A stretch of DNA of 64,000 nucleotides from Babesia bigemina (GCF_000981445.1 NC_027218.1:2356001-2420000), one strand, 5' to 3'; positions 1 through 64,000 are shown, counted from the stretch's first letter. The notes: a model not told the origin generated them from the letters alone. Made by a program: numbers and translations.

Positions 1-3000
1 CCCGTGGAGCTTAGTAGTGTGAAAGGGAGCGCTTTAGTTTTTGATCTAAAAAAAATTTTGCATAAAGAAGTCAATAGAAGTGGCAAAGCAGTGCATGATC
101 ATTTTCGAAATGTTGTATTGACGACTTTGGGAAAACCGTGGAATAACTTCAACACTGGGAACGCTGTCCTTCTGGTTTACGCATTTTGCCAGTTGGTGAT
201 GCAGGAAAGCCGTTATGATGGAGGTGCATTCAAAACAGCATTGGAGACAGGCCTAATAGAACACAAAATATGTTGGAAAGATCTAAAGGACCATTGTCAA
301 ATCCTACATGGGCACATTGATACACTGACAGCCGCGGGGTTTTCCGTTACCGGTAGAGGAATTAAGCCTACAAGAAAAGAAGATTTTGCAAAAGTGGCCG
401 CCAAGTGGTTCAGAGACAACTTGCCGACAGCTGCAAGCGTATTGAGTGAAATGATCCCTCACAGTGTTGACATATCTACACTTCGATCATACGCCAAGGA
501 TAAACTCTATCCCAATGGATTCATTTTTGACGGGAGCAATCATAGCGTGTGGCCCAGTCTTACTCAGCTAAATAAATGGGATCCTATATTTCAAAAGTTC
601 GGCCAGCTAGATGAAATGCTGGGAAGGCTTAAAGATATATTGGAAGGTAAGAATATAGTTGCATGTAAACCCATTGCCACTAAAACCGAGGCGGCGAAGC
701 CTACTGCCACTAAAACCGAAGCCACCAAAACTGAGGCTGCCAAGCCCGTTGTGACCAAAGCCGAGGCGGCGAAGCCGACTGCCACTAAAACGGAGGCAAC
801 TAAACCGACTGCCGGTAAAACTGAAGCGACGAAAACTGAGTCTACAAAGCCTGTGGTCACCAAAGCCGAGGTGACGAAAACCGACAGCCCGCAGCCTGAA
901 GCTCAAAATGTAGAAAATACACAGAGCCAGGCCAAGAAAGCGGAGGGAGCACAGAACCAGGGCAAGAAATCCGAGGGAGCGCAGAACCAGGGCAAGAAGG
1001 CGGAGGGGGGGCAAAGTCAAAAGGGCCAGAGTGGAGATAGGTCTTCAAGTTTACAAGCACCAAATCCTGTTGCAGCTCCGGCGTCTGACGCCAAAGGTTA
1101 TAAAGGAGACGCAGGCTCGGCAGGGGCTAAAGGTCAAATGCCAACGGAGCTGTCGCAGTCTCAAGATACGTCACATAAGCAAGTTGCTCAGCAGCAACAG
1201 ATTCAACAAACTCAATCTCCAGCCTCTCCCCCTAGTGCTCCCGCAGCCCCTAGCCCCGCTGGTCCGACAAGTGACGGGGGTACAATTCCAAAGGGCAGTG
1301 ATTCTCCGGGTAAACATCCTGTTTCTTCTACAGGTGTTGTATATTCTGCGGCACCAGGTGTTCCACCTCCCGACCCTCTCCCCAGTGCTGCTGGAGCCCC
1401 CGGTTCGCCGGGTGCCTCAGGTATGACTTCAAATAACGGTGATTCTCCAGCTTCACAATTTGTTACTACTACAACCGCTGTAATCACTCAGCCCCCAAGT
1501 ATTTCCAACCCAGGGACTCCGTCACATGGTGCCTCTGGTTCCAGTGGTGGTACGGGGCAAGTTGGGCAGGCGGGTGCTTCTGGCTCTGGTCAACCAAGGG
1601 GTCAAGAGGTACAGACCGGTAAAAGCGCCACACCTACGAAGTCCACTGGCCCGGGTGCTGGTACAGTTAGAGGTGGATCTGGAGGGGGTGCGGGGGCAGG
1701 TGATACAAGGATGGTGGATCCAGAACTCGAAGAGCGATTAAAGGTTTACGAAAAATTATTGAAAGAAAAAAAAGACCGAGATGACAAAAATATGCAAACC
1801 ATACTAAATAAATTTAATGAAAATTTAGAACAGATTGAACAACAGAAAATGCAACAACAGATGCAAAACGATCTACAAAGACAGTTGCTTGCAAATATAT
1901 CTTCTGCCAATATCCGTCTTAACGAAAACATCGCTGGTTCTACTGGAGGTCGTACTCTTAATTGGCACCACCCATACGATCCGAAAAACCTGACACGGCG
2001 CCTTCAAGCTGTTAATAGATTGCAATCTCATGCTCTCGATGGTAGAGAGGTTTGGAATAAATCGCCGAGTGATTTATATATGGAAAAACGACATGAGGAA
2101 TGGGAACGTCAATGTGAAGAGGAACAACGAAAAAAAGACCAAACGTATAACGATACAATATTGCATCTGAAAAATAGGCAAGACGTCGATAAGGAACGTA
2201 TACAACTATCACAAAAGCAACACGAACAGACTGTACTAGATTCCCTCCAATCCATGCAACAGATAGAGCATGAGAATGCTAAAATTACGTCAGTTGCAAC
2301 AGGTTTAGACGGTGAAACCGCCGATACTTTTGACGTCAAGGAAGTGTCAGATGCTGACAATGAAGTCGTTTTCGACGGTCAACGGGCCGTGGAGATTGAG
2401 GGCCAAGAAGTGCATGATGCTGAAGAGTTTTTAAAACAACAAAAACAAGATGCGGAGCAGATACGGTCAGAAGCGCAACTAGTAGCGTCATTGTATGATC
2501 GTCAGCAAAAAACGTTGCTCAATGGTAATGAAGTTTTGGAGCCCTTTAACGTCGAAGAGGAACTTTTTCAACCAGTAGCACAAAGCGATATGGATCTGTA
2601 CAAACCCAACGGCGACATTTCTACAGCAATTTCTAATATTCCAGACGTCGGTATGACGGGACATGCCATTACATCTCCACCCGAAGTTGACGTGAAAATA
2701 CAGTCTGTTCCCGTGAAGCCGGAGTATATGCCAGACCCCATTCTCCCCGATTTTGACATATCCATCGATATACCCGCACTTCTTGTGCCAGAATCTCTTG
2801 AAGATTATGATTACGGGCCTTCCTATAGGTTGCCTACGGCCATAGGGAGGGATAAACAAGATGCGAACACATTTGACCCGCCCCGATTGGCGTCGGAGCG
2901 TGGCATTCCACTCTTCGCTAATCCATACGTCTGCCGTGATCCCTGGTCCGTTACCCCCTACTCCCCTGACACACCCCCTCCACCTACCTCCCCTCCCCCA

Positions 3001-4536
3001 ACCTCAGACCATCTGCCCCCGCCGAAAACCGTCCGGGAAATGCTGTTCTGGTTCGTCGGATTGAATCAATCAGGGTATATTTGGATGATCACGGAGCATG
3101 TGAAAGACCTTTTGATGAGTAATAACACAGATGCCCTGGATGTCATCCGGGAACCATTCACTCTAGACGCTTCCCATGTCGCCGCCAAACTGACTGAGAC
3201 GTGTCTCTACTCGGCAAACGTACTTTACAGAATTAAGTATCGCGATGATTGCGCAGCCTATAAAGAGTTTAAGTTGGAATCAGTTTACAGTCAGCTTCGC
3301 TATTCCCCCGACCCCGCCTGTCTCCTCTGCCAGCTGCGTGACTACGTCTACGCCTGCCACTACCAGTTGCAGTTCCTCAAGTCGCAGTGTAAGAGGGACA
3401 AACTAAGTGGTGGATGGCAGGATTATAAATATGGCAGTGACATCACTTCTTCCAAGTCCCCCCTCCAGTCCTTCCTGACTGACGGCTGGGACTCCACCTT
3501 CAAGACTCACCCCTTCGACCCGTGCAACCTGTGCCACAAGAGCAGGATAAGGATGGGATTCAGAGACAAAGACTTGCCTAAGTCATCGCAACAAGGCAAT
3601 GTCATTTCCTCCATCCTCACCCCCAGCTGCGGCGGTAGTGATCCCCTGCTGACATTGGCGTCCTACCTCAACGGCCTGACCAGGCGGACGCCGCGCACCA
3701 CCGGGGAGCTTGTGTCGTTCTTCCACCATTTCGGTATCGAGTTGCACGATTATGGTCAAAAGGACCTGTCTCCGCTGGGCAAATCCCTCTCCACTCCACA
3801 CCCCGACTGCCCTGACTGGGACCATCTTGGTCGCCACGACCTCCAAGCTGTCAGTGGCATCCGAGGGTCCGAGATTCTCACCACCATCCACAACTCCAAA
3901 CATGACCATGCCGACACTCTGTCCACACTGGTTGGCTGCAGCAGTGACGCTACCATCTGCCATCCACATTGCTCGCCCATCACGTACCGGGCCTACGCCC
4001 TGTACTCTCATACCTTCGCCCACACCTACCTCAGCTGGACGGTGTACCTGCCGGACAGGCTGTGGGAGTCACTTGAAAAACTGTACTATGAACTCAAGAA
4101 GCATGATTACGCCAAGTGTTCATCCCTCTACCTGTGTTCCACTGCGCCGCCCCTCCTCTATTTACACGGGTTCACGCCGCCGGAGGTGGGATCGCAGCCT
4201 AAACTCACGTGTTCAGATGTCATCGCCAAGCTGCAGGAAATTGTCAACGGTGGCCCTATCGCATCACTCATGACCGCCATGGACAATTTCCTCTACGGCA
4301 TCCGGGAGCCGTTCATCTTCACTATCGTAGCACTCTGGTCTCTCGCATTCCTCATCTTCGCCAACACGATGCTGTACCGCCTGGACGTACTCCACATCCG
4401 ATCACACCTTATTCGCACCAAGGCTTCTCACCTCATCGATGTCAAGGCCTTACTCACTAAAGGCCGGAAGATGCTCTCACTCTACAAAGACGTCGACTAC
4501 TTCGACGAGGACCCTATTGGTCAGCTTGTTATTTAA
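1..4536 (+). CDS. VESA-like variant surface antigen (5' end outside window) with low-complexity repeats and RRBP1-like decapeptides
   Basis: Frame is open from base 1. C-terminal ~520 aa has typical ves-family blocks (TVREMLFW, CLLCQLRDY, SPLQSFLTD, RRTPRTTGELVSFF, YLSWTVYLPDRLW), a TM (IREPFIFTIVALWSLAFLIF) and a short tail (RLDVLHIRSHL...HLIDVKALL...DYFDED). Homologous to 54905-59044. Confidence 0.9.
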   Translation, partial: PVELSSVKGSALVFDLKKILHKEVNRSGKAVHDHFRNVVLTTLGKPWNNFNTGNAVLLVYAFCQLVMQESRYDGGAFKTALETGLIEHKICWKDLKDHCQILHGHIDTLTAAGFSVTGRGIKPTRKEDFAKVAAKWFRDNLPTAASVLSEMIPHSVDISTLRSYAKDKLYPNGFIFDGSNHSVWPSLTQLNKWDPIFQKFGQLDEMLGRLKDILEGKNIVACKPIATKTEAAKPTATKTEATKTEAAKPVVTKAEAAKPTATKTEATKPTAGKTEATKTESTKPVVTKAEVTKTDSPQPEAQNVENTQSQAKKAEGAQNQGKKSEGAQNQGKKAEGGQSQKGQSGDRSSSLQAPNPVAAPASDAKGYKGDAGSAGAKGQMPTELSQSQDTSHKQVAQQQQIQQTQSPASPPSAPAAPSPAGPTSDGGTIPKGSDSPGKHPVSSTGVVYSAAPGVPPPDPLPSAAGAPGSPGASGMTSNNGDSPASQFVTTTTAVITQPPSISNPGTPSHGASGSSGGTGQVGQAGASGSGQPRGQEVQTGKSATPTKSTGPGAGTVRGGSGGGAGAGDTRMVDPELEERLKVYEKLLKEKKDRDDKNMQTILNKFNENLEQIEQQKMQQQMQNDLQRQLLANISSANIRLNENIAGSTGGRTLNWHHPYDPKNLTRRLQAVNRLQSHALDGREVWNKSPSDLYMEKRHEEWERQCEEEQRKKDQTYNDTILHLKNRQDVDKERIQLSQKQHEQTVLDSLQSMQQIEHENAKITSVATGLDGETADTFDVKEVSDADNEVVFDGQRAVEIEGQEVHDAEEFLKQQKQDAEQIRSEAQLVASLYDRQQKTLLNGNEVLEPFNVEEELFQPVAQSDMDLYKPNGDISTAISNIPDVGMTGHAITSPPEVDVKIQSVPVKPEYMPDPILPDFDISIDIPALLVPESLEDYDYGPSYRLPTAIGRDKQDANTFDPPRLASERGIPLFANPYVCRDPWSVTPYSPDTPPPPTSPPPTSDHLPPPKTVREMLFWFVGLNQSGYIWMITEHVKDLLMSNNTDALDVIREPFTLDASHVAAKLTETCLYSANVLYRIKYRDDCAAYKEFKLESVYSQLRYSPDPACLLCQLRDYVYACHYQLQFLKSQCKRDKLSGGWQDYKYGSDITSSKSPLQSFLTDGWDSTFKTHPFDPCNLCHKSRIRMGFRDKDLPKSSQQGNVISSILTPSCGGSDPLLTLASYLNGLTRRTPRTTGELVSFFHHFGIELHDYGQKDLSPLGKSLSTPHPDCPDWDHLGRHDLQAVSGIRGSEILTTIHNSKHDHADTLSTLVGCSSDATICHPHCSPITYRAYALYSHTFAHTYLSWTVYLPDRLWESLEKLYYELKKHDYAKCSSLYLCSTAPPLLYLHGFTPPEVGSQPKLTCSDVIAKLQEIVNGGPIASLMTAMDNFLYGIREPFIFTIVALWSLAFLIFANTMLYRLDVLHIRSHLIRTKASHLIDVKALLTKGRKMLSLYKDVDYFDEDPIGQLVI
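670..885 (+). repeat. Coding Thr/Lys/Glu/Ala-rich repeats (PTATKTEAAK / TKTEA / PVVTKAE)
   Basis: Degenerate 15/30-nt units visible in DNA and translation. Confidence 0.85.
922..1014 (+). repeat. Three 30-nt units encoding QSQAKKAEGAQ-NQGKKSEGAQ-NQGKKAEGGQ
   Basis: Same unit as the 57481-57790 array (e.g. aagaaagcggagggagcacagaaccagggcaagaaa is shared). Confidence 0.9.
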
Positions 4537-5260: not shown

Positions 5261-5271
5261 ATGAGTGGTTG

Positions 5272-5553
5272 GTGACTTCGTTGCTTAAGTGATTGATATG
5301 TTCGCAGGTTGAGGGGACTGGGAGTGGCAGTGGTACGTGTTGCAGTTGGTGAGTGCGTTGCTAGGTGATTGATATGGTTGCAGGTTGAGGGGACTGGGAG
5401 TGGCAGTGGTACGTGTTGCAGTTGGTGAGTGCGTTGCTAGGTGATTGATATGTTTGCAGGTTGAGGGGACTGGGAGCGGCAGTGGTACGTGTTGCAGTTG
5501 GTGAGTGCTGCTTGAGTGATTGACATGTTTGCAGGCTGAGGGGACTGGGAGTG
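5272..5553 (+). repeat. 76-bp tandem repeat (~3.5 copies), each unit an exon-like 41-mer plus a 34-36 nt GT...AG intron-like segment
   Basis: Units start at 5308, 5384, 5460 and 5535 (g(t/c)tgaggggactgggag), each preceded by gtga...gcag. Confidence 0.9.
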
Positions 5554-5563
5554 GGAGGGGAAG

Positions 5564-6103
5564 ATGAGTAGGGGGATGGATTGGATGAATTGTACATGTG
5601 GTACGAGTTGTAGGTATCCTAATTGTATCTGTTGTCCCTGGTGTTGTGACGGATGTACGACTGGCGTAGGTTGCAGTGGATGTTGGTTAAATCGCCATAA
5701 ACGCGAAACTAACAGTGATCCAACTTACAATTGCGCTACTTTCGGTTGTAAAACAAAATGTGCAGGCAAGGAGTATAAATGTAAATGTAACTGTTGTCAA
5801 CAGACATGTAAAAGTCAAGAGAAGCCTGGCACCTGCAGTCCCCCCGCTCCACCGCCCACCCTTTCTTCCCCCGGTGTTCAGGATCCTGAAGCCAGTCTAG
5901 CGCTGTCATCGCCTCCCGAAGATGAGCCCCAAGAAAACAATTCTCATTTCTCCCCTGACCCCCAAGTCATCGCCGCCGTCATCGTTGCCATCATCGTCGC
6001 CATCATCCTGCTCGACCTGTGCATCTTCCGCTTTCCCGTGGGCCGCAACATCCGCGATTTCCTCGTCCGCAAGATACCCTTCTGCATCGCGTTCTACAGC
6101 TGA
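5564..6103 (+). CDS. Small Cys-rich protein with Pro-rich linker and C-terminal TM (family member A)
   Basis: CICCPWCCDGC and CKCKCNCCQQTC motifs, TM VIAAVIVAIIVAIILLDLCIF, tail RKIPFCIAFYS; paralogous to 6886-7323. Confidence 0.85.
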   Translation: MSRGMDWMNCTCGTSCRYPNCICCPWCCDGCTTGVGCSGCWLNRHKRETNSDPTYNCATFGCKTKCAGKEYKCKCNCCQQTCKSQEKPGTCSPPAPPPTLSSPGVQDPEASLALSSPPEDEPQENNSHFSPDPQVIAAVIVAIIVAIILLDLCIFRFPVGRNIRDFLVRKIPFCIAFYS

Positions 6104-6840: not shown

Positions 6841-6885
6841 GTGGTTCATGTTTGTAGGTAGAGGAGGGAGAAAAATAGGGGGAAG

Positions 6886-7323
6886 ATGAGTGAAGAGACG
6901 CGCTGTCCGGATTGTAATAAGGACTGTATTACGACCAAGTCATGTAGTTGCTGTTTCTGGTGTTGTGTAAGGTGTCAGAGTGGAAATTGCACATACTGTA
7001 AACAATTTTACCATCTGCGCACAATAGGCGAATTGAGAGACCAATGTGATCCTCCAGTATGCAAGAAACAATGTAATAAATGCACCAACAAAAGCTGTGC
7101 ATGTCCATGTTGTAAGAGGGGACGTATACGCCGTGCTTACTTAGCTGCCCAGGCTTCTAGAGGTGCTACCACTGCCCCAGCTACCACAGTTCCCGTAATC
7201 ATGGCCACACTCTTCATCCTCATCCTGCTGTTCGATTTATGCATCCTTCGCATTCGAGCGTTCCAAGACGTCCGCGAATATATCGTAAGCAAATTGCCCT
7301 TTTGCATCGCATTTTACAATTAA
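6886..7323 (+). CDS. Small Cys-rich single-TM protein (member B)
   Basis: CSCCFWCCVRC motif, TM ...ILLFDLCILR, tail SKLPFCIAFYN; same ggggaagATGagt start context as member A. Confidence 0.85.
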   Translation: MSEETRCPDCNKDCITTKSCSCCFWCCVRCQSGNCTYCKQFYHLRTIGELRDQCDPPVCKKQCNKCTNKSCACPCCKRGRIRRAYLAAQASRGATTAPATTVPVIMATLFILILLFDLCILRIRAFQDVREYIVSKLPFCIAFYN

Positions 7324-8779: not shown

Positions 8780-9637
8780 CTACGCCAAGCCAGCGTATGC
8801 CCTTGGAGGGACGGCGGGGTAGCGGTCAGTGTTCATCTCGGGAATTTTGTCACCGACGAGATTACTGAGGGATCTGGCGGAGTGCCTAGGGGAGCTGGCA
8901 AATGTGGCACGTATTTTAGTCATAATCGCGTGGTACTTCTCGGGATACATAAACCGGAAAATAAGGAATAGCAACACAATGATAACTAAGGGTAGCGCTA
9001 TCGTGCAGCAGCGCGCAAATCTATCTTGGCCGCATACTGTGCCGCAGTATCTGCATTTGAGGATGCATAAACCATTTGCTCCTTTTTCTCCACGGGCCCA
9101 CTTATTGCAATTGCCGGGGCGACAGTCAATGTGCGATTCATCGCACTGGATGATGGGTTTTTGCTTACGATCACGAACGGCACCGTTTCCGTCGTATCTC
9201 ACATGGCCTTGGCACAATCCATCCGGACATCTGCCGAGTACATAGCCGTCACAATTACTTCCGGGGCATTTGCCAGGATTGCACCAACTACAACAACTAC
9301 AAATTACGCCGTTACATTGGAATCCACAGCTACAATAATGACATGCACACTGTCCCCCTTCTTTGCATCGTGTGAGGCAACGCTGGCAACCAGTTTTTAT
9401 TCCTTTGCAGCTTTCAGATTCCGGCTTGTCAAAACAATTAGTCGGACAACCACAGCAAGCATTAGAACATTTACACTTCCCATCCTTCTGGCACTGCTTC
9501 TTACACTCGTCACATCCAGGAAGACAACAAGAATAGCACTGCGGACATTGTGATTTATCGCAAGGCCCTTTATCGTGACCGTTTTCTTTTTTCCTATCAC
9601 ATCCACACGTGTTCGTCCCTTTCTCCGCCTCCCCCAT
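8780..9637 (-). CDS. Cys-rich single-TM protein, 285 aa (member C)
   Basis: About 40 Cys before the TM, CSCCSWC motif, TM IALPLVIIVLLFLIF followed by YPEK, tail EMNTDRY. Confidence 0.85.
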   Translation of the reverse strand: MGEAEKGTNTCGCDRKKENGHDKGPCDKSQCPQCYSCCLPGCDECKKQCQKDGKCKCSNACCGCPTNCFDKPESESCKGIKTGCQRCLTRCKEGGQCACHYCSCGFQCNGVICSCCSWCNPGKCPGSNCDGYVLGRCPDGLCQGHVRYDGNGAVRDRKQKPIIQCDESHIDCRPGNCNKWARGEKGANGLCILKCRYCGTVCGQDRFARCCTIALPLVIIVLLFLIFRFMYPEKYHAIMTKIRATFASSPRHSARSLSNLVGDKIPEMNTDRYPAVPPRAYAGLA

Positions 9638-11983
9638 CCTCCTCCGCCTTCACTCCCATGCCACCCACGGCAACAGACAATATGTTTCAAGGTTCCACCA
9701 TATTTAAAAAGGCATAGTTTAAGGAGCTTATATCCACACATGCAATGCGCTGTGCATCCAGATGAGCATGCAAACTTGGTCCGCAATCCCAGAGAACTGA
9801 CTGAGCATTCGTACCACTACATGCGTTGATGAGGCGACTAAACAATATGATGGCCATGGAATCGGGATCTATTATATTTTGTTTGATAATGTAGACCACA
9901 ACTCATCAGGTCACGCCACCCTACTACCGTATGCTGCGGCACAAACATGGTAGCATGATAACGCATCTAATTGTACCGACTGTCGAGTTCATTTAACTTG
10001 CCTCAACATCTTCATATTTATTGCCAACATAACTACACAGTCCCACATATTTTGTACAAAAGCTTCTTGTACTCCAAACGTGTGAAATCATGCGCAGAGT
10101 TCGTAGGTGCCAATTCAGCATCCCCTCTGAATGATGGCACTACAAACTTTCGACGTTGCTATGATGATTATTTAAAACAGGCGTTCACAGCCATCTATAA
10201 TCGGTCATACATATTCATCACTTGATTAATCCATGCTTACCTACATCATAGTATTCTTTCTCTAACTCACCAGAACAATAGCCGTAAACACTCACTAATA
10301 GACGCACTGAGGTGGGAACATACTTCCCATGTTCTACATACACCGTAGATGGCCTTGAAGGCCAACATGCTTTCCCAACTCGACTTGTCATGTACCCAAT
10401 GATCAATGCAGAACAAAGGGCAACGTTCTTGCATAATTCCTCACAACGTGTGGCACCTCCTTTACGTCCATTTACACAGCTATGCATACGGTGAAATTTT
10501 CCAGTCATCCAATGGTGACTTAAGTTTAAAGCCACTTAGTCCATAACCAATCTGCTTCACCTCAAGGAGGTGCTGACCTCGAATCTTAATAATGGCATCG
10601 TTATAAACTCGCTCATGCTGCTTTTAAGCATTTATCATGACAGAAAACCGACTACAGTTATAATCAATGGTATCATGCTACCCATGACGGCGGTGGTAGT
10701 TGGTAGACTGTATACGTCAACCGTTGCTGTGGGTAGATTAATACCAAGGGATATGGCATGTACAATATAAAAACTAAAGTCATTATAGTTCATATACTAG
10801 CATTTCGCCATAACAGTGTTCCCAAATGAACCCTCTCACCAAGTGTTTCGAAAAAGCCCAGAGATCGGCGCTTACATAGCGGCGGGGAATTCCACAACGT
10901 AAGATATAATGCGAAATTGTATAACAAATGGCCAATCTGTAGTAATGTAGCCATGTGCAAATTCGTATCCACGACCCGATATAAAACTTTAGTGTATAGA
11001 AATCCATGCTTTGCCACCATCACATCTCTGAATAATATGTATGAGTAGGTGTAATAGCAGGTTTATTGGTTGAATACAGTAAACAACAATAGTTTCATGA
11101 TGTATTACAGTGGCAAATGGCGATACTTTTGTAAAAAAGCGGCAAGAGTGATCTGTTTATTACCATCCCATATCAATTAAGGGTGATAATTACGGAGATT
11201 ACAAAAGCAACCGTTACTAATATGTCGGCATACTTACAATGCTGTTTTGATCGATACTTGTAACGATCGTCGATGTCTATGGTTGATCTTGTCTGTGGTG
11301 ATGGCAAGACGTAGTAGTTGGTGATGTTAGGAGACATTCGTGTTAGGAGTAAGTAGAGGATTTTAATCCAACGTGTATAGATGCGCAGCTACGAGCAGTG
11401 TTTCAACCCGAAGTCTAGTGTGATAAATATGTCGATATTGGCCGCAAAGGCATTACAACTGATTCGTAATGCCAATGCTAAGCTGGATAATATATCAGGA
11501 ACGCTATAGGACTAGAGGGGGTAGTAACGCATCAGTAGCCGTGGTTTACGATTAGATCGAGACTTCATGCTCTCAGCATTCTGGTCACAAATGTAACAAT
11601 GTACTGTCACATCAACTACCCACATCATTCACACTTCGCAGTAATAAGCGGAAATACTGAGGTACTCAGGAGCAGCGTAGAGCCCGCAATTTTAGTTAGA
11701 AATATACAGAAAGGAACCATCGTCTGAAAAACGCAACTTTGGCATGCACCGGGCATTGTAGAGTCTGGTGGACCTATTCTAAATACCCTGCCATGCATAT
11801 TCAACTCAAGATGCTGGGAGTCATTTTCCGGTCGTCCAGAGTGCTAGATAGCATTGGCAAGCGGAAGCTACATCGATACACACGCATGCTGCTGTCGCTA
11901 GGATAGTGCACCTACAATTGTCACCACCGTGTGGGTAGGCCGTTCATTGGTTTGCAGGTTCTTTGTTAAGTAATGTGTGGAAT

Positions 11984-53874: not shown

Positions 53875-54280
53875 TACCTTGGTTTCACGTCCCTCATCGC
53901 TATTTTATGTGTGTCTTGGATCACTACTCTTGGTAAGTGGTTATTCATCTGATCCTATATGCCCAGGTCCCGTCTGTACTTGCTGTGCTCCTTTGTCACT
54001 ATTCCCTCCCACGTCATAACGTAGGGGATAACCCTGATCTTGGTTTGCTGGTTAAACTGTCGCGCCTTGAGGTCCTCGATAAGGTCTTCATACTTCTGCT
54101 TCTTGAACTTATCCGTATCCACTGGGTTGTATTGATTGGTGATTCCTATCTCCACGATGGTGATGGTGTTCTTTCGCCGATCCGCCAGGATGATGTCTGG
54201 CCTGTTGTATTCCTTAGTCTTCTGAGTCTTGACCGTCTTGTCGTACGCGATCGTTTCCTTTTCCCATAATATCGCCTTTT
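53875..54280 (-). mobile_element. Decayed non-LTR retrotransposon C-terminus (restriction-like endonuclease domain)
   Basis: IAYDKTVKTQKTKEYNRPDIILADRRKNTITIVEIGITN...KKQKYEDL...IRVIPYVMTWEGIVTKEHSKYRRDLGI*: PD...E and KxxKY RLE motifs; in-frame stops on both sides; no RT domain seen. Confidence 0.8.
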
Positions 54281-54904: not shown

Positions 54905-57900
54905 TTATTTAAGCTGGTCGATGAGATCATTGGGATCATCGTCGAAGTAATCGGCGTCGTAGAGTGAGAGCATCTTCCTGCTATTAGTGAGCAGCGCCTT
55001 GACGTCGATGAGGTGTGAAGCCTTGGACCTGATGAAGTGAGAACAGAGATACAGGACGTCCAGGCGGTACAGTATCGTGTAAGACATGAAGAGAATTGCG
55101 CCTGACCACAATGCCATGAGCGTGTAGATGAATGGCCCTCGGACTCTGTAAAGGAACTCATCCATGCAGGTGATGAGCATTGCAATAGGCTTGCCGTCGA
55201 CCACGGTCCTCAGCTTTACGATTATATCTGAACATGTGAGTGGCCACTGTAATTTACCCTCCGGTGGCATGAACCCGTGTGTGTAGAGGAGAGGCATGGC
55301 AGCGGAACACTGATGGAATGATTTAGGTTCGGAACATGTATGCGTCTTGAAATCATATCGCAGTCGTTCAAGTGACTCCCACAGTCTGTCCGGCAGGTAC
55401 ACCGCCCAGCTGAGGTAGGTGTGGGCGAAAGTCGGAGAGTACAGGGAGTACGCCCGGTAGGTAATGGGCGAGCAATATTGTGGGCAATTGGCCGAGTCAC
55501 TGCAGCAGCCAACAAGTGTGGACAGCGTATTGGAATGGTCATTTCCGTGATTGTGCTTGGAGTTGAGAGTCTCGTAGCCCCGGATGCCCTGAACTGCTTG
55601 GAGGTCGGAGTCACCAAGTTGGTCCCAGTTGGGGCAGTTGGCATGTGACTTGGTGATGGCAGTGCCTAGTGAAGAAAGTGCCTTTGAAGCATAATCGTGC
55701 AACTCGATACCGAAATGATGGAAGTACGACACAAGCTCCCCGGTGGTGCGCGGCGTCCGCCTGGTGAGGCAGTTGAGGTAGGAGGACAGGGTCAGCAAGG
55801 GGTCCTCACCGCCGCAGGTAGGAGACAGGATGGTTGAAATGACACTGCCCTGCTTCGATATCTTAGGCAAATCTCTCCTCTTGAATCCCATCCTGACCCT
55901 GCTCTTGAGGCACAGATTGCACGGGTCGAAGAGGTGCGTCTTGAAGTCGGAGTCCCAGCCGTCAGTCAGGAACGCCTGGAGGGGAGATGGCATCTTGGCC
56001 TCACTGCCGTACTCACAATTCTTCCAACCGCCTCGAGACTCATTTCTAGAACACTGCGACTTCAGGAATTGCAACTGGTAGTGGCAGGCATAGGCGTAGT
56101 CACGCAGCTGGCAGAGGAGACAGGAGGGGTCGGACGAATAATGCAGCTGACTATATACTGATTTGAAGTCGAAAGTAGAGAAGGCTTTAAAATCATTGTA
56201 GTACTTAATCCGTGTGATTATGTTTGCCGAGTAGAGGCACGCCTCTGCAAGGGTATTGGTGACACGGGAAGCAGTCAGCTGGTTGGGATACCCGGTGACA
56301 TCGATGGCAAATGAAGGCCACGAGGAGTCTTTATTAATATCATCCAAAACTCCACCAACATGCTTCTGAATAAAACCAATGTACCCTAATTCGACAACGC
56401 CGACCATCCAATAGAGCATTTCACGGACAGTATTGGGAGAAGGCATATTGTCAGAATCTGGGGGAGAAGTAGTTGAATGCCTGGTAGAGGTGGATGAAGG
56501 GTCAACATACCAGGGGTTGAGGCATTGGGGAATATACACTTCACCAGTACCTCCTTCGTTGGGTGATTCATGGAAATCAAAATGTTCAAACGGCATATCG
56601 ACATCACGAAGGTCTAATGAGTTCGACAAAACTGAAGCTTCTTGTAACTTATCCAGGTCAGAAGCTATATCCGATTGTGGAGATGCTTTGCCAAGTGTAT
56701 GGGAAACAGTCAAAGGATCTTTAGGAGGGTTAATGCCGTTGCGGTATCGTGATCTCTCAATATGATCACTGATTAGCGCATCGGCACTTGAATTATAAGC
56801 ATCCTCACTAGATATCAATTTAGGCTTCAAAATTTCCACTTCTAATTTAGGCAAATCCTGACCTTGACCACTACCGGGAGCAAGGCTACCAGATGCAGCA
56901 GATTGCCGGCTCGAATCCTTTGCTGCCTGAGTGAGCACAGCCTGGGAAGATACTGTATGCTGTGAACCCAAAGAAGCATTCTGTAAACCCCCACCTAGCA
57001 CCGCAGCTTGAGCAGTGAGCTTAGGGCTTCCAGTAGGACTGGCGGGAGGGGTTGGAAAAGACGCTGGCGACGATTGAAGTGTAGGCTGAGGCGATTGTAT
57101 CCCCTGTGCATCTGAACCTTGAGACGACGCAGAAGCAACCATACTAGTAGGCCCTGTCTGGCCTGGATCACCATTAGACCCCGGTGCGCCTGGAGCACCA
57201 CCTGCACCATGGCCACCAGGTGACGAGCTTGAAGGTTTAACACCTGGAGCTTGAGGTAAAGCAGGCGCTTGAGCTGGAGGATCACTGCCCTGCAAACTCT
57301 TACCTGCGTCATCTGGCGGACCAGCGTGGCCCTGGGGTCCTTTACCATCTTCAGGAGGAACGTTAGAACCAAGTGATGTATGCGACATTCCAGGCTGGTG
57401 TTCACTTTGACCATTGTTTTGATTTGAAGATCCCACTGACGCAGCATCCGCCAAATCGTCCTCCTCATCATCATCATCAGATGCTGCCTCCGCTTTCTTG
57501 CCCTGGTTCTGTGCTCCCTCTGCTTTCTTGCCCTGGTTCTGTGCTCCCTCCGCCTTCTTACCCTGGTTCTGTGCTCCCTCCGCTTTCTTGCCCTGGTTGG
57601 GAGATCCCTCTGCTTTCTTACCCTGGTTCTGTGCTCCCTCCGCTTTCTTGCCCTGGTTCTGTGCTCCCTCCGCTTTCTTGCCCTGGTTCTGTGCTCCCTC
57701 CGCTTTCTTGCCCTGGTTCTGTGCTCCCTCCGCCTTCTTACCCTGGTTCTGTGCTCCCTCCGCTTTCTTGCCCTGGTTGGGAGATCCCTCAACTCCAAGA
57801 TCATCACTCACACCTAACTCCTCTAACACCACAACCTCATCCTCCTCGTCATCTGCTTCAAGATCCGCCGTCTTGACATGGTTATGGTCTTTACATGACA

Positions 57901-59044
57901 CACCCTTCAAAATATTTACCGTCTTATCCAGTTCTCTACCGTATTCACTGAGAATCTCTACTACCCCTTTCCATTTCTGATCCAAAACCTGAGACCTGTA
58001 GCTCTCCGTACCGAAGTCGTGGCTATCAAATATAAAACCATATGGGAAAAAATGCTTGTTGAAATAATCACCAGCATTTGTATAGCGATTTGCCTTAATC
58101 TCTTTCAGACTTGACCCCACTCTATCCAAATTCTCTCTAAGCCACCTCGTCATCCTTTTAGCGAACTTTTCTTTGTTAAGATCATCAACTGCTGGCGAAT
58201 GACCAGTGTTGGAGAGGACACCAGCATTGAAAATTCTTTCGAGTGACACTCTAAGTTCGGCGCAATGCGTTTTCAATTTTTCCCACTCGATGCAGTTTCT
58301 GTACTCGTTGATATACCCATCCAGAGCATTTTCTACCTTTCTATCTTTGTCATCGTCCACAATCTCGCAAAATGTTTTGAGCAATGCAAGAGCGTTCGCC
58401 GTGTTGGAAGCCTGTGAGCCAGCGTTGGTCAAAGCCGATGTGACAAGTACGTCACTAAAGAAATTTGTATGTAACTCGCCCAGTAACTTTGGGAGGTCAT
58501 CAACCATCTCCGTACCGTAGGTATAGCCACCATCACTACCTTCTTTCAACCTGCCTTTTTCGAATCCACCAGAAATGACACCATACTTAACGAAGGACGT
58601 ATCAATAAGATATGTATCAATCTTACTGACACCAGATGTAGACATTGCAACCATTCCAATCGTTTGATCCGCCCAGTCCCCTCCGCCTACCGCAACGAAC
58701 CTCTTATCCACATGATATTGCAAGAAGTACACGACGGAGAGCAATTTGGGAATGCAAGCGAGTAGGGTAAATAATACCACACTAGGTGTGTTCGCCATAT
58801 AATTAGTAGGCTGCGCATTCTTGCACAATTTATCATAGAAGTGTGACACTTGAAAAAGCAATCGCGACAGTGCGGTTTTTATGTTCTGTGAATCTGAATT
58901 CTTAGAATAATAGATTCTAAGACGCCGAGCCAGTTCCTCGGCCACCTGACCTTGCATATGTTCGTCATTTTTCAACCACTCCAGGAACTGGAGACACTGC
59001 TTAAGATTGTTAAGCGCAGGAATCTTACTTGTTATCTTCGCCAT
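54905..59044 (-). CDS. VESA-like variant surface antigen with RRBP1-like decapeptide array
   Basis: N-terminal LNNLKQCLQFLEWL, conserved ves C-terminal region, TM (VRGPFIYTLMALWSGAILF), tail HLIDVKALL...DYFDDD; first ATG at 59044. Confidence 0.92.
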   Translation of the reverse strand: MAKITSKIPALNNLKQCLQFLEWLKNDEHMQGQVAEELARRLRIYYSKNSDSQNIKTALSRLLFQVSHFYDKLCKNAQPTNYMANTPSVVLFTLLACIPKLLSVVYFLQYHVDKRFVAVGGGDWADQTIGMVAMSTSGVSKIDTYLIDTSFVKYGVISGGFEKGRLKEGSDGGYTYGTEMVDDLPKLLGELHTNFFSDVLVTSALTNAGSQASNTANALALLKTFCEIVDDDKDRKVENALDGYINEYRNCIEWEKLKTHCAELRVSLERIFNAGVLSNTGHSPAVDDLNKEKFAKRMTRWLRENLDRVGSSLKEIKANRYTNAGDYFNKHFFPYGFIFDSHDFGTESYRSQVLDQKWKGVVEILSEYGRELDKTVNILKGVSCKDHNHVKTADLEADDEEDEVVVLEELGVSDDLGVEGSPNQGKKAEGAQNQGKKAEGAQNQGKKAEGAQNQGKKAEGAQNQGKKAEGAQNQGKKAEGSPNQGKKAEGAQNQGKKAEGAQNQGKKAEGAQNQGKKAEAASDDDDEEDDLADAASVGSSNQNNGQSEHQPGMSHTSLGSNVPPEDGKGPQGHAGPPDDAGKSLQGSDPPAQAPALPQAPGVKPSSSSPGGHGAGGAPGAPGSNGDPGQTGPTSMVASASSQGSDAQGIQSPQPTLQSSPASFPTPPASPTGSPKLTAQAAVLGGGLQNASLGSQHTVSSQAVLTQAAKDSSRQSAASGSLAPGSGQGQDLPKLEVEILKPKLISSEDAYNSSADALISDHIERSRYRNGINPPKDPLTVSHTLGKASPQSDIASDLDKLQEASVLSNSLDLRDVDMPFEHFDFHESPNEGGTGEVYIPQCLNPWYVDPSSTSTRHSTTSPPDSDNMPSPNTVREMLYWMVGVVELGYIGFIQKHVGGVLDDINKDSSWPSFAIDVTGYPNQLTASRVTNTLAEACLYSANIITRIKYYNDFKAFSTFDFKSVYSQLHYSSDPSCLLCQLRDYAYACHYQLQFLKSQCSRNESRGGWKNCEYGSEAKMPSPLQAFLTDGWDSDFKTHLFDPCNLCLKSRVRMGFKRRDLPKISKQGSVISTILSPTCGGEDPLLTLSSYLNCLTRRTPRTTGELVSYFHHFGIELHDYASKALSSLGTAITKSHANCPNWDQLGDSDLQAVQGIRGYETLNSKHNHGNDHSNTLSTLVGCCSDSANCPQYCSPITYRAYSLYSPTFAHTYLSWAVYLPDRLWESLERLRYDFKTHTCSEPKSFHQCSAAMPLLYTHGFMPPEGKLQWPLTCSDIIVKLRTVVDGKPIAMLITCMDEFLYRVRGPFIYTLMALWSGAILFMSYTILYRLDVLYLCSHFIRSKASHLIDVKALLTNSRKMLSLYDADYFDDDPNDLIDQLK
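57481..57790 (-). repeat. 30-bp tandem array, 10 units of EG(AQ/SP)NQGKKA followed by EAAS
   Basis: Directly visible; units 1-2 are identical to units 7-8 (180-bp higher-order period). Confidence 0.97.
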
Positions 59045-60255: not shown

Positions 60256-63200
60256 TTAGGCTTGCAGGTACGATATCTTGGCAAGTTTGCCGACACGTGC
60301 TGCAGCGAGTAGTGACTGGGCAGCAATTTTGTAAGAGGCTGGCGACCTGAGGTGTGATTTGATGTGGAGCGTGTCTAGGCGTCCGATCAAGACGTAGAAC
60401 AGGTAGAGAAGAGACAGCGACCAGAGGGCTACAACTGTCCAGATGAATGGCGTCCGAATAGTGAACATCAATGTGTCTATGGCATGCAAGAAATTTCCCA
60501 GCACCTGGGAATTCAAGATGTTTTTCAGCACATTAGAAAAATCTTGGCACTTAATCTGGCTTTTGTTTGCGGCATCGGCATACGTCAAGCCATATTTATA
60601 AAGTATTGAGGAAACCGGTTGGCAGTGGACGATGGAGCTACATCCACATGAAGTGGTGCCGTGTTTGCCTTTTGTGCAACTCTCACTGTGGAGGCATGGT
60701 GAGCAACGGGAGTCGGCACATGAGACATCACTAAATGCCTTCTGCAATTGTTTAAAGAAATCCACGAGTTGGGGGCAAACGTGGACTAACCATGACAAAT
60801 AACTTTTGGCATGCTTCGGAGCGAACGCGCCGTATGCAGCTGAGTTTATAGGTCGGATGATATAACCGCAATCCTGCTCACCACACCCAACTAAATAACT
60901 CATGTCGGAAATACGGGTTATATCATGCAGGAAGTGAGATGGAGATTCATACAGACTGCGGCATTGATTTATGAACTGCTTAGCGTCCTCGTATTTACAG
61001 GACACAGTCTTTTCGATAGTGTTGCTAAGTGCTTGTTCTATTGAATTTGACGGCTTTTTATATTCAGTCATCGGAGTCCACGGTTGTACAAGTTGGTAAT
61101 AGAAGGCGAATACATCAGGGAATGTCTGCGGAGGACGACCAACGAAGCATGCCAGTGAAGCGTAAAGTTTGGTGAGTACGCCTCGATCGCCGCATAGTTT
61201 GTCAAGCACGGAACATAGGTCCTTACCAGTACGCGTACTACAGGAGAATGTCCTAAAGCCTAGGGGTGTCAAGCAAGGCATCTTAGGTGAACTGGACGAG
61301 CACGTGGAACATTTGGAAGTGCAGCCAACAGACTGCAATTGGTGAGGCAAGTGTCCGAGGAGACAGTCGGTCAGGTAGGACATCAGAGGAGATGTACGTT
61401 GGCAATCAGGTGTCTGATCAGAATGTTCCTTACACTGCCAACTTGACGTACCGGCGTTTTTGCCGTAATGGCAGTCGCGCCAACCTAAGTTCTTAACACC
61501 GAGTTTACATTGCCAATATAAAAATTGCAAGACAGGGCACAATTTGCGGAGCACGTCTAATAGCATATCAAAGCACGCTGCAGCATCGGAAGGATAGTGC
61601 AACTCAAGAGAGTTCCCGAGATATTGGCACGCATAAAGGGTGTCTGCGTCGCCATATCCCACGATACTGGTAAGCATATCGTAGGCAGGAGTGTAAATTG
61701 ACGGTAGTTCAGATGTGAATATATCCGATAATATATTTCGCAGTATAACATCAGTTTCAGAGTCGAATTGTTTTTGGAGGTACTTCGTAAGTTTCTCCTT
61801 TACTGGGTTATGCTGCAGGCCACTGAGCCATGCAAGCATCTGGAATGCGTTAAGCGGATGTTTAGCGGAAGAGAAAGTCCCTAAGTGGGAAATGCGCAAG
61901 TAATATTTGATTATGTCGGCGAAGTCGTCCAGAGAGGCGAGAATATCATAACTGGGCTGTGACGTGACCTGAGTGTTAGACTTAAATAGATCAACGATGC
62001 TATTGCCATTAAAACCCTTCTTGTGATTTAACTCGCCGTATTCCGCATTGCTGGGAAGGCCAGGATCGTAACCGTTTTTGCTAAAGAAGAGGCTGCTAAG
62101 GCTATAATTGTAATTCGAACTATACATTTTGTAGTCTTTCCACGTACTTTTTGTTTTCTCAACTTCTCTTTTATATTTGAATAAACTCTTGAGCATTATG
62201 TCTATCGTGGTCAAGAATACCGTAGCACATTTCGTGCCTTGCAGAGATGTTTCAGTTGACTTTATATCGGACCAGTCGACATTGGGAACGCTGTCGTATG
62301 CCGACACGTATGCGTTTTTGAGCTCATTGTGAAACCCTTGCAGGCCGTTTTTCAGAATCTCAAGCAACTTATTTCTCTCATCGTTGTATGACTCAGGGCG
62401 TATGCTCTGCAGAAGAGTATTAACTGCTGCCAGGTCATCTACAAATTTCTTATTGTAATTAGAAAGGCCATTGAGGAGAGTGTTAAGCGTAGCATCTATC
62501 TCGGTGAGCTTATGAATAGGAATTATGTCACGCTTCGTTTTGAGACTGTGGAAAATACCATTGAAGAAGTTACCGACACCAGAGGCGAATGTCGCCAGTT
62601 TAGCGTGCTGTGGCAAGTCATTTTTCAAATTAGCAGAGCTCACATGCGTTTCCATCTCTTTCATGAACCCTTTGAACTCCGTCTTGAGGTCAATATCGAT
62701 TCTCTCTGGCAAATTCAACAGCTCACCTTGCACTTTAGTGGCAAACGCATCTAGCAAGCCTTTCATAGATGACACGTAGTTCTTTTGCGCCTGGGATGTG
62801 AGTTTTGCGATTGCGAAAGATATTTGTTCGTCAACTTGTTTTTGAAGTTGTTGTACGGTTGAGGTGCATAACGTGTCAGCTTCACCAGCAAATTCTTCGG
62901 ACAACTTTAGGGCACCATCTGCAAACCTCTTCTGCAGCTCGGTAAATCGATCACGAATCTTTTTAAGTTGCGTGTTTATAGTATCGTTTGCCAATGTTCC
63001 CAGATGCTGTTTGGAGTACTTCACTCCGTTCTTAATTGCCTCGCATAGCTCAGTAAGGTGGTGGTACACAAGGTTGCCCTGGGTTTCGAGTGCAGCTTTC
63101 GCCGCTTGGGCCTGTTGGGCAATGCTATCCTGTAGCTGGCTAATAGTATTCAGATCAGTATCAACGATTCTGTTGACAGCTTCTTGCATCTCTGAGATGC

Positions 63201-64000
63201 TCCCTGCGACGACGGCAATAATGAGGCCTAAGAGCTGCCGTTTGACACCGTCAATGGTTTCGTTGCTAAGTGTCTCTTTAATTACTTTGGGAATATTGGT
63301 GGTGATGTTGGATTGTAAAATGTTTTCCCATTCCTGCTGCGCATTGTGAAGATGGTTCAAGACCTTTTCTACTTTTGCGCCAGGACCGCTGTCGTCGTAG
63401 TCTAACGCTGCACTATCAAGCCATTTTCCCACGCCCTTTGCCGTCCACAGGTCAGTCTCTTGCAAAGCTTGAAGACCTTTCCAATTACCACTCCTGGGAG
63501 CACTTTCTGTAGCCGCATCCAACCCCTGCTTTAAATCTTTCCAAATACCATCAATCGCAATTCCCAACTGTCTATTTGTTTCCTGTCTGAGCTCTCGGAT
63601 TGACTGGCTGAAATCCCAATTACCACCGTTACCCGTATTAAAATTTTCAAAGTCTTCCGGCATCGTAGTCGTAACCTTCTCTTCAAGGCCTTGCAGTTTC
63701 TCGATAACGCATCCTTCTTCTTGTCCATCACCTGCTTTCCCCTTAATCTTGGCGACAACTACATCGAATTGCCTTTTCGCTGTTTCGAATTTCCCATGCA
63801 GCTCCCCGGCTTGTTTCTCAACCTCCTTGGCCGCTTTGGCAATTGCACTCTTATTATTATTTTTTTTATCTTCAGGATCACCAACCTCATTTTCAATAAC
63901 GGCAACTTGCCTGTTTGCCTCTTCTATAACTTCCAACGCCTTCTCCATCCAATCCTCCAAGGTTTTAATATACTTTCCCAAGGATTTATATACTTCAACA
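60256..64000 (-). CDS. ves1: Large VESA1-like antigen (5' end outside window)
   Basis: Helical N-terminal part; MLAWLSGL, GWRDCHYG, SPLMSYLTD, CLTPLGF, YLSWLVH, CGCSSIVHC, TM IRTPFIWTVVALWSLSLLYL, tail RLDTLHIKSHLRSP...IAAQSLLAAARV; frame open to the window edge. Confidence 0.9.
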   Translation of the reverse strand, partial: VEVYKSLGKYIKTLEDWMEKALEVIEEANRQVAVIENEVGDPEDKKNNNKSAIAKAAKEVEKQAGELHGKFETAKRQFDVVVAKIKGKAGDGQEEGCVIEKLQGLEEKVTTTMPEDFENFNTGNGGNWDFSQSIRELRQETNRQLGIAIDGIWKDLKQGLDAATESAPRSGNWKGLQALQETDLWTAKGVGKWLDSAALDYDDSGPGAKVEKVLNHLHNAQQEWENILQSNITTNIPKVIKETLSNETIDGVKRQLLGLIIAVVAGSISEMQEAVNRIVDTDLNTISQLQDSIAQQAQAAKAALETQGNLVYHHLTELCEAIKNGVKYSKQHLGTLANDTINTQLKKIRDRFTELQKRFADGALKLSEEFAGEADTLCTSTVQQLQKQVDEQISFAIAKLTSQAQKNYVSSMKGLLDAFATKVQGELLNLPERIDIDLKTEFKGFMKEMETHVSSANLKNDLPQHAKLATFASGVGNFFNGIFHSLKTKRDIIPIHKLTEIDATLNTLLNGLSNYNKKFVDDLAAVNTLLQSIRPESYNDERNKLLEILKNGLQGFHNELKNAYVSAYDSVPNVDWSDIKSTETSLQGTKCATVFLTTIDIMLKSLFKYKREVEKTKSTWKDYKMYSSNYNYSLSSLFFSKNGYDPGLPSNAEYGELNHKKGFNGNSIVDLFKSNTQVTSQPSYDILASLDDFADIIKYYLRISHLGTFSSAKHPLNAFQMLAWLSGLQHNPVKEKLTKYLQKQFDSETDVILRNILSDIFTSELPSIYTPAYDMLTSIVGYGDADTLYACQYLGNSLELHYPSDAAACFDMLLDVLRKLCPVLQFLYWQCKLGVKNLGWRDCHYGKNAGTSSWQCKEHSDQTPDCQRTSPLMSYLTDCLLGHLPHQLQSVGCTSKCSTCSSSSPKMPCLTPLGFRTFSCSTRTGKDLCSVLDKLCGDRGVLTKLYASLACFVGRPPQTFPDVFAFYYQLVQPWTPMTEYKKPSNSIEQALSNTIEKTVSCKYEDAKQFINQCRSLYESPSHFLHDITRISDMSYLVGCGEQDCGYIIRPINSAAYGAFAPKHAKSYLSWLVHVCPQLVDFFKQLQKAFSDVSCADSRCSPCLHSESCTKGKHGTTSCGCSSIVHCQPVSSILYKYGLTYADAANKSQIKCQDFSNVLKNILNSQVLGNFLHAIDTLMFTIRTPFIWTVVALWSLSLLYLFYVLIGRLDTLHIKSHLRSPASYKIAAQSLLAAARVGKLAKISYLQA

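What the first reader, a model, noticed from the sequence alone, without database searches (positions are those of the whole stretch)
57481..57790. Parasite variant antigen carries a near-perfect copy of the mammalian RRBP1/p180 ribosome-binding repeat
Seen: ten tandem NQGKKAEGAQ/NQGKKAEGSP units between two acidic patches of a ves-like protein. Established (from memory): NQGKKAEGA(P/Q) is the decapeptide repeat of mammalian ER ribosome receptor RRBP1, whose array also contains EGSP, KKSEGAQ and QAKK variants; these same variants occur in this window. Inference: matching minor variants is hard to explain by convergence, so this may be host sequence captured into an antigen family, serving as self-mimicry (the repeat is N-terminal to the TM, the predicted exposed side) or as an RNA/ribosome-binding module. 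I recall automated annotations naming such Babesia genes 'ribosome-binding protein 1', but I know of no functional or evolutionary explanation.
Basis: partly seen in the sequence, partly recalled or inferred. Interest (0 to 1): 0.88.

Follow-up and report, generated by a model that had tools for sequence, protein, structure and literature searches.

The report
Pathogens share host repeats as camouflage
A Babesia surface-antigen-type gene carries ten copies of a ten-residue repeat identical to a mammalian protein, the same repeat sits in membrane-protein-type genes of a cattle trypanosome and several mycoplasmas, and sister genes carry exact pieces of muscle titin, so these are likely host-like spacers that help hide the pathogens from antibodies.

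Summary
The array is real: ten NQGKKAEGAQ-type units, in frame, in the variable linker of a ves1a-like Babesia antigen. It matches mammalian RRBP1 exactly for up to 55 residues. It is not an assembly chimera: 59 of 120 family members from two Babesia species carry it at the same site, and close paralogues have 0, 0 and 4 units. It expanded in place, so it is not a copied ten-unit host block. The same decapeptide occurs in Trypanosoma vivax proteins with signal-peptide and GPI-like ends and in four mycoplasma protein types. Synonymous sites vary freely while the peptide is kept. The same Babesia linker also carries exact titin PEVK pieces (18 of 120, up to 19 residues) and a third module shared verbatim (21 residues) with a mycoplasma adhesin. 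Best reading (0.6): host-identical spacers kept because they draw little antibody. Main rival: glycan or matrix adhesion. Ribosome binding is unlikely. Capture versus convergence stays open, because no mammalian RRBP1 DNA and no ruminant RRBP1 protein could be obtained. The RRBP1 likeness of the mycoplasma repeat was noted in 2011; ten literature searches found no account of the Babesia, titin or trypanosome cases.

The parts
54905..59044 (-). ves1a-like variant antigen gene, single ORF of 1379 aa (P0001)
   Evidence: 189 homologues at E<=1e-10, the 120 listed all named B. bigemina or B. ovata except two window-encoded rows
57890..59044 (-). N-terminal family domain (residues 1-385), with a hydrophobic stretch at 89-107
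   Evidence: 28-62% identical to paralogues; hydropathy
57791..57868 (-). acidic patch before the array; shared with array-less paralogues P0125 and P0129
57482..57790 (-). RRBP1-type decapeptide array, 10 units, with an internal 180-base duplication
57437..57475 (-). acidic patch after the array
56513..57436 (-). S/P/G/Q-rich low-complexity linker with collagen-like G-X-Y runs
54908..56512 (-). conserved Cys-rich C-terminal domain (residues 845-1379)
   Evidence: 23.5% over 476 aa to the neighbouring ves-like gene
55073..55129 (-). predicted C-terminal transmembrane helix (residues 1306-1324)
   Evidence: Kyte-Doolittle 1.48; family median 1.76, 101 of 120 at 1.4 or more
1..4536 (+). second gene of the same family (5' end outside the window; P0003)
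664..885 (+). AAKP/TKTEA module; 21-aa exact match to a mycoplasma adhesin (L043)
925..1014 (+). three RRBP1-type units (QAKK, KKSEGAQ and EGGQ variants)
60256..63999 (-). neighbouring ves-like gene of the other, ves1b-like type (inferred); carries no repeat unit

Best explanation
The array is one of several interchangeable repeat modules in the variable linker of a Babesia ves1a-like antigen family, its peptide is identical to mammalian RRBP1 (other modules to titin), and it is likely kept as a flexible, exposed spacer that the host's immune system treats as self. Shown: identity to host peptides; a fixed site and order of modules; gain and loss among paralogues; peptide conserved while synonymous sites vary; recurrence in a trypanosome and in mycoplasmas. 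Inferred: export to the red-cell surface with the linker outside; shuffling between paralogues by recombination; selection by antibodies, since a repeat shared by half of a variant family would be a cross-reactive target unless it is self. Origin of the seed is open. My odds: about 55% short capture from host nucleic acid, 35% stepwise convergence under immune selection, 10% passage between pathogens. The array then expanded locally.
For: Family. 59 of 120 members carry the unit (20 of 41 B. bigemina, 39 of 79 B. ovata), with the first unit at residues 262-521 in 57 of 59. Presence is scattered on the C-terminal-domain tree: 35 changes against a shuffled mean of 36.0, while the species label needs 3 (107 of 123 rows). 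Second host protein. 18 of 120 members hold an exact match of 10 aa or more to titin PEVK, up to 19 aa, against none in 50 of 50 locally shuffled titin sets. Where two or three modules co-occur the order is titin, AAKP, RRBP1 in 29 of 30. Rare unit. B. ovata P0140 matches bat RRBP1 exactly over VDASANQGKKAE, five changes from the consensus (one case). Recurrence. Of 98 HMMER hits among 1.84e9 representatives, 36 have the unit: 3 mammalian RRBP1, 26 Babesia, 4 mycoplasma, 3 Trypanosoma vivax. In T. vivax it lies between a Cys-rich head behind a hydrophobic N-terminus and a hydrophobic C-terminus, a stalk position. Among Mycoplasmatales, 12 of 399 genomes scored have true units, in P97/P102-type adhesins, MG185/MG260 lipoproteins, DUF3713 proteins and one unassigned protein. 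Selection. Between units pN/pS is 0.063/0.33 in the window; in 12 mycoplasma genomes pN is 0-0.11 and pS 0.43-1.34 (units are not independent). One adhesin site holds the RRBP1 repeat, the AAKP module or KEPAPTT repeats (resembling lubricin; recalled, untested) in different genomes. A 17-unit paralogue (P0019) is expressed at 298-889 CPM in blood stages against 2.6-4.2 in tick kinetes (PMC9806345 supplement). Precedent: P. knowlesi KIR proteins match host CD99 over up to 36 aa (PMC4413850).
Against: There are no immunogenicity or localisation data for this linker. RRBP1 and titin are intracellular, and antibody tolerance to intracellular proteins is incomplete (own knowledge). SEGAQ, the second commonest Babesia unit tail (62 of 239), is in none of 48 mammalian sequences held, and ruminant RRBP1 was not seen. 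No host template was found for the AAKP module, and loose AAKPE-type repeats occur in many unrelated proteins. The mycoplasma R1 and R2 regions bind heparin, fibronectin and cilia (PMC13632039), a function that needs no camouflage. 61 of 120 members lack the unit. Jackson et al. saw little ves1a expression in the isolate they analysed. Five of six other family genes looked up were absent from the RNA-seq table.
Confidence: 0.6

Rival explanations
1. Adhesion module: the lysine-paired decapeptide is kept because it binds sulfated glycans or matrix proteins, and likeness to RRBP1 reflects a shared polyanion-binding chemistry or a convenient captured seed.
For: R1 and R2 of M. hyopneumoniae Mhp271 bind heparin, fibronectin and cilia (review passage). 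R2 is GTPNQGKKAE (PMC9542919). The array is net basic (20 K/R, 11 D/E). B. bovis VESA1 is implicated in cytoadherence.
Against: Does not explain exact titin pieces at the same site, the rare RRBP1 unit, or letter-perfect identity where a binding motif would allow substitutions. Acidic patches flank the array.
Confidence: 0.2
2. Pathogen-to-pathogen cassette: the modules passed between mycoplasmas, Babesia and trypanosomes sharing livestock hosts, with at most one original host capture.
For: Two modules (RRBP1-type and AAKP) are shared by Babesia ves1a-like genes and Mesomycoplasma adhesins, one with a 21-aa exact match. No host template was found for AAKP.
Against: No DNA affinity: synonymous sites are saturated between Babesia and mycoplasma units (pS about 1.2), and third positions agree at 6 of 21 in the longest AAKP match. 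Flanks are not shared. The titin module was not found in 401 Mycoplasmatales genomes (no positive control). This rival explains the route, not why the peptide is kept.
Confidence: 0.08
3. Neutral or purely physical spacer: a soluble disordered repeat that happens to resemble host proteins, with no immune role.
For: The array is dispensable (61 of 120 lack it) and copy number varies from 0 to 17. Generic low-complexity linkers arise repeatedly.
Against: The peptide is held while synonymous sites diverge. Exact matches to two unrelated host proteins have very low chance expectations. The unit was seen only in mammals and their pathogens among 98 hits.
Confidence: 0.07
4. Ribosome- or RNA-binding module, as in RRBP1.
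For: The basic region holding the repeat is needed for ribosome binding by p180 (PMC2120505 abstract). A second hydrophobic stretch (residues 89-107) leaves the topology of P0001 not fully fixed.
Against: RRBP1 has 54 units, whereas most Babesia members have 1-4. The predicted position is outside the cell in Babesia, T. vivax and mycoplasma lipoproteins. Mature red cells lack ribosomes (own knowledge).
Confidence: 0.04
5. Assembly chimera with host DNA.
For: The parasite is grown in host blood, and no reads could be laid.
Against: The units are in frame at one site in 59 of 120 genes of two species. Flanks align with array-less paralogues. Two genes in this window share codon choices. A repeat-bearing paralogue is transcribed.
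Confidence: 0.01

Closest known systems
Mammalian RRBP1/p180 ribosome receptor
   Same: Decapeptide repeat, with minor variants EGSP, EGTP, DGTP and VDASA.
   Different: No PF05104 region, no N-terminal anchor and no coiled coil in P0001. 10 units rather than 54. Predicted outside the cell rather than cytosolic.
Babesia bigemina ves1a (BbigVes1a; Jackson et al. 2014, PMC4066756)
   Same: Conserved C-terminal domain with one predicted helix. A low-complexity S/T/P region follows nucleotides 1250-1500, which the paper names as the dominant recombination breakpoint; the array lies at CDS bases 1255-1563.
   Different: The paper's main text has no occurrence of 'ribosom' or 'mimic'; host-identical modules are not described in the passages read.
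Mycoplasma hyopneumoniae P97/Mhp271 R1 and R2 repeats; R2-bearing CDS of M. suis
   Same: R2 is the same decapeptide. Its presence in pig RRBP1 (KIAA1398) was noted, with its relation to parasitism called unclear (PMC3091866).
   Different: Unrelated carrier proteins in bacteria; studied as adhesion motifs; no link to Babesia, trypanosomes or titin in what I read.
Plasmodium knowlesi KIR-CD99 mimicry
   Same: A variant antigen family with stretches letter-identical to a host protein (PMC4413850 passage).
   Different: CD99 is a host surface immune protein and seven genes carry it. Here the templates are intracellular repeats, half the family carries one, and the same template recurs in unrelated pathogens.
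Titin PEVK region (Pfam PPAK, PF02818)
   Same: Exact 16- and 19-aa matches in paralogues; PF02818 listed for P0173.
   Different: One or two motifs only; absent from the two window genes.

Membership tests
RRBP1/p180 | tandem NQGKKAEGA(P/Q) decapeptides | tested here: met
RRBP1/p180 | N-terminal membrane anchor followed by the K/P-rich region PF05104 | tested here: not met
   PF05104 in galago RRBP1, not in P0001
RRBP1/p180 | C-terminal coiled-coil half | tested here: not met
   exact 8-mers shared with the mammalian proteins held are confined to residues 419-521; all 120 listed C-terminal hits are Babesia family members
RRBP1/p180 | ribosome binding at the ER | not testable with these tools
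   needs a biochemical assay
Babesia ves1 (ves1a type) | conserved C-terminal domain with one transmembrane helix | tested here: met
   helix predicted by hydropathy only
Babesia ves1 (ves1a type) | S/T/P-rich low-complexity region after CDS bases 1250-1500 | tested here: met
   against the passage
Babesia ves1 (ves1a type) | direct match to genes labelled ves1a, or to Pfam VESA1_N | tested here: inconclusive
   no VESA1_N hit in P0001, a weak one in paralogue P0103 (E 0.023); locus tags not found in 3 supplements, one file not searchable
Babesia ves1 (ves1a type) | display on the infected red-cell surface and antigenic switching | not testable with these tools
   known for B. bovis VESA1; inferred here
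Host-sequence mimicry in variant antigens (KIR-CD99 kind) | stretches letter-identical to a host protein, beyond chance | tested here: met
   against non-ruminant mammals only
Host-sequence mimicry in variant antigens (KIR-CD99 kind) | identity to the protein of the parasite's own host species | not testable with these tools
   no bovine RRBP1 or titin was returned
Horizontal gene transfer from host | DNA similarity at synonymous sites to the host gene | not testable with these tools
   no mammalian RRBP1 DNA in the collections scanned
Pentapeptide-repeat beta-helix proteins | beta-helical fold | tested here: inconclusive
   Pfam Pentapeptide_2 is below cut-off in P0001 and above it for the array alone; the single-sequence model has pTM 0.28 and is uninformative

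The most novel reading that the evidence does not exclude
Unrelated pathogens of livestock (an apicomplexan, a trypanosome and several mycoplasma lineages) have repeatedly captured a small set of highly repeated host peptides (RRBP1, titin PEVK, a lubricin-like repeat and one unidentified repeat) from host nucleic acid. They use them as swappable, antibody-silent stalks in surface proteins, which marks out the strongest holes in the mammalian antibody repertoire.
Probability: 0.35. Interest if true: 0.93.

Novelty: new variant of a known kind. Interest (0 to 1): 0.82.

Why it matters
It would explain a misleading annotation on a large Babesia family and show how a variant antigen family can share an exposed linker without creating a cross-reactive target. 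The same host peptide in three unrelated pathogen groups makes a long-standing question testable with peptides and sera: whether sequence mimicry is kept by self-tolerance, and whether it comes by capture or convergence. In practice, P97/p113, ves1a and T. vivax antigens bearing these repeats may cross-react in serology or raise anti-host antibodies when used as vaccine antigens.

Tried and rejected
No whole genome was held for the window. A two-unit DNA pattern found nothing in viral or metagenome contigs and only 2 genomes in genome contigs; that scan is not exhaustive, since one search found more in another genome set. Sequencing runs: none was listed, so junctions and expression of this gene were not checked with reads. 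PDB: no match. Protein atlas: no usable hit for the array, and only hits under 0.9 for the AAKP module. The structure model of the array was uninformative; an alignment for a second fold failed. Plasmid collection: 3 records, one Mhp271 and two loose pentapeptide-like matches. The phylum-level sample (15 of 399) largely repeated the order-level one and is not an independent control. Third-position G+C of the units is above the local expectation in 13 of 13 genomes printed (the script stopped at the 14th). This could hint at a GC-rich donor but equally reflects synonymous diversification, and lineages are related, so I did not use it. Four look-ups of earlier scan findings returned nothing. Two papers were not held, so the lubricin likeness and the original P97 paper rest on recall. 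PMC11414289, PMC11732093 and PMC8106180 (passages) added nothing on RRBP1 mimicry. The beta-helix model in PMC12491259 is a computational proposal (passage), not tested here.

Full report
Observation. The window's - strand carries a 1379-aa ORF (P0001, 54905-59044). Residues 419-521 are EGSP plus ten decapeptide units: eight NQGKKAEGAQ, one NQGKKAEGSP and a last NQGKKAEAA (period 30, 9.9 copies), between two acidic patches. A second gene of the family (1-4536, +) has three units at 925-1014 behind an AAKP/TKTEA repeat. The RRBP1 consensus NQGKKAEGAP x54 is confirmed from PMC2120505 (abstract and reference list only) and PMC12491259 (passages). A search with residues 410-530 gave 197 hits among 6267 candidates of 758-2414 aa. 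The 120 listed are 12 mammalian RRBP1, 12 Babesia proteins and 96 mycoplasma P97-family proteins. The longest exact match is 55 aa to galago RRBP1 and 58 aa to M. ovipneumoniae adhesins.

The carrier gene. The C-terminal domain finds 189 homologues, and the 120 listed are B. bigemina and B. ovata proteins mostly labelled 'ribosome binding protein'; the organism is inferred from these relatives. There is a predicted helix near the C-terminus and none of RRBP1's other parts, so the label comes from the repeat alone. Jackson et al. (PMC4066756; passages, and 3 of 4 supplements searched) describe BbigVes1a with a dominant recombination breakpoint at 1250-1500 bp before an S/T/P-rich region, which is where the array lies. 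Assignment to ves1a is therefore inferred, not matched to a label; the supplement I could not search may bear on it.

Not a chimera, not a block copy. 59 of the 120 members carry at least one unit, in both species and at the same place. The three nearest paralogues have 4, 0 and 0 units between alignable flanks. On a FastTree tree of the C-terminal domain (107 of 123 rows; 16 lacking the anchor motif left out), presence of the repeat needs 35 changes against a shuffled mean of 36.0, whereas species needs 3. The module thus comes and goes independently of the rest of the gene, as expected from recombination among paralogues (inference). Within the window array, bases 180 apart agree at 127 of 129 positions against about 90% at other multiples of 30, so it grew by local duplication and the 55-aa match reflects homogenisation.

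Other modules. The same linker holds titin PEVK pieces. A search with P0173 residues 356-408 among proteins of 2703-5000 aa returned one hit of 29 candidates, elephant titin (78%). 18 of 120 members (3 of 41 B. bigemina) share an exact stretch of 10 aa or more with the titin sequences held, up to 19 aa, against none in 50 local shuffles (at 8 aa, 22 of 123 against 0-6 in 30 shuffles). 34 of 120 have the AAKP module, and the order titin, AAKP, RRBP1 holds in 29 of 30 members with two or more. One B. ovata gene matches a rare bat RRBP1 unit exactly over 12 aa, five changes from the consensus, and four more carry near versions. Against this, SEGAQ (62 of 239 Babesia unit tails) is in 0 of 48 mammalian sequences held, none ruminant, and many other Babesia tails have no mammalian counterpart in that set.

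Recurrence. In Mycoplasmatales, 21 of 399 genomes scored matched the array; by inspection 12 have true units, 1 a different repeat and 8 none (2 genomes not scored). Carriers are P97/P102-type adhesins, MG185/MG260 lipoproteins (G020, four places, two scanned with Pfam), DUF3713 proteins (G150, two places, one scanned) and an unassigned protein (G147). HMMER over 1.84e9 representatives with window 664-1035 gave 98 hits. The 36 with a unit are 3 mammalian RRBP1, 26 Babesia, 4 mycoplasma and 3 Trypanosoma vivax proteins; cases with one or two units can be missed. The three full-length T. vivax proteins examined have a hydrophobic N-terminus, 11-12 cysteines, 4-7 units and a hydrophobic C-terminus, the layout of a GPI-anchored head on a stalk (predicted). 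The AAKP module matched 11 of 398 Mycoplasmatales genomes, with a 21-aa exact match to the window's copy but only 6 of 21 third positions in agreement. Outside Babesia and one mycoplasma adhesin the longest exact AAKP match was 8 aa, and no host template appeared. One site near the end of a mycoplasma adhesin holds the RRBP1 repeat (P0299, P0308), the AAKP module (L043) or KEPAPTT repeats (P0349; a lubricin-like motif by recall, not tested).

Selection. Units differ at synonymous sites far more than at replacement sites: pS 0.33 and pN 0.063 in the window, pS 0.43-1.34 and pN 0-0.11 in 12 mycoplasma genomes. Between Babesia and mycoplasma units synonymous sites are saturated while pN is about 0.05. 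Units within arrays are not independent, so these figures are descriptive. The exact peptide, not the DNA, is what is shared.

Mechanism. Something common to cattle-blood protozoa and mycoplasmas of mammals holds these peptides letter-perfect, and two of the modules are host proteins. I take the host's immune tolerance to be the likeliest filter (0.6): a repeat shared by half of a variant family would otherwise be a cross-reactive target. A 17-unit paralogue is about 175-fold higher in blood stages than in tick kinetes (PMC9806345, passages and supplement rows), which fits a role in the mammal. However, five of six other genes looked up were not in that table, and ves1a expression was low in the isolate analysed by Jackson et al.. 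Adhesion to glycans or matrix, reported for the mycoplasma R1/R2 regions (PMC13632039 passages), is the main rival and could act alongside. Surface exposure, low immunogenicity and the route of origin are all untested.

What is known. PMC3091866 (passages) noted in 2011 that the P97 R2 motif occurs in an M. suis protein and in pig RRBP1, with its meaning left unclear. KIR-CD99 identity is the precedent for variant antigens (PMC4413850 passages). Ten searches of the open-access library found no paper linking Babesia ves genes to RRBP1 or titin mimicry. None of the searches targeted trypanosomes, though the search for the motif itself returned only two p180 papers. Subscription journals are not covered.

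Verdict. A real feature and a new variant of a known kind (host-sequence mimicry in surface antigens), unusual for its modular form and for the same host repeat recurring in three unrelated pathogen groups. Interest 0.82.

Noticed in passing
window 664-885 (+); L043, P0349: The AAKP/TKTEA repeat module is shared verbatim (14-21 aa) between Babesia ves1a-like genes and mycoplasma adhesins; no host template was found.
   Followed up: partly
P0173 356-408, P0182, P0091, P0229 and others: Titin PEVK-identical stretches in 18 of 120 family members, from two PEVK repeat types.
   Followed up: yes
P0287, P0288, P0307, P0359: A Trypanosoma vivax family with hydrophobic ends, a Cys-rich head and an RRBP1-type stalk; no informative Pfam family.
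   Followed up: partly
P0349 C-terminus; L039, L040, L049, L001, L003: KEPAPTT-type repeats in mycoplasma adhesins; in P0349 they sit where relatives carry the RRBP1 repeat. They resemble the lubricin mucin repeat (recalled).
   Followed up: partly
L016, L035, L036, L037 (G020): Four lipoprotein genes of one genome each carry two or three RRBP1-type units, with variants such as GDGAQ that also occur in rodent RRBP1.
   Followed up: partly
P0142, P0149, P0161, P0172 and about 15 more B. ovata members: An alternative linker type, PKPRPRPAPAPRPP followed by an R/G-rich stretch, replaces the repeat modules; any host likeness was not tested.
   Followed up: no
window 56513-57436 and many paralogues: Collagen-like G-X-Y runs (up to 15 triplets in P0154) follow the array; possibly another host-like module.
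   Followed up: no
window 5540-6103 (+), 6862-7323 (+), 8780-9649 (-): Three small Cys-rich ORFs with a C-terminal hydrophobic helix beside the first ves gene; a 76-base tandem repeat lies at 5268-5554.
   Followed up: no
window 53955-54278 (-): A short ORF with a RPDIILADRRKNTITIVEIG motif, resembling the endonuclease end of a non-LTR retroelement (recalled), next to the ves gene.
   Followed up: no
L021 (G387) 1033-2055: A mycoplasma membrane-protein-like ORF with about 13 QDPAKKVEGSE units, a looser relative or look-alike of the decapeptide.
   Followed up: no
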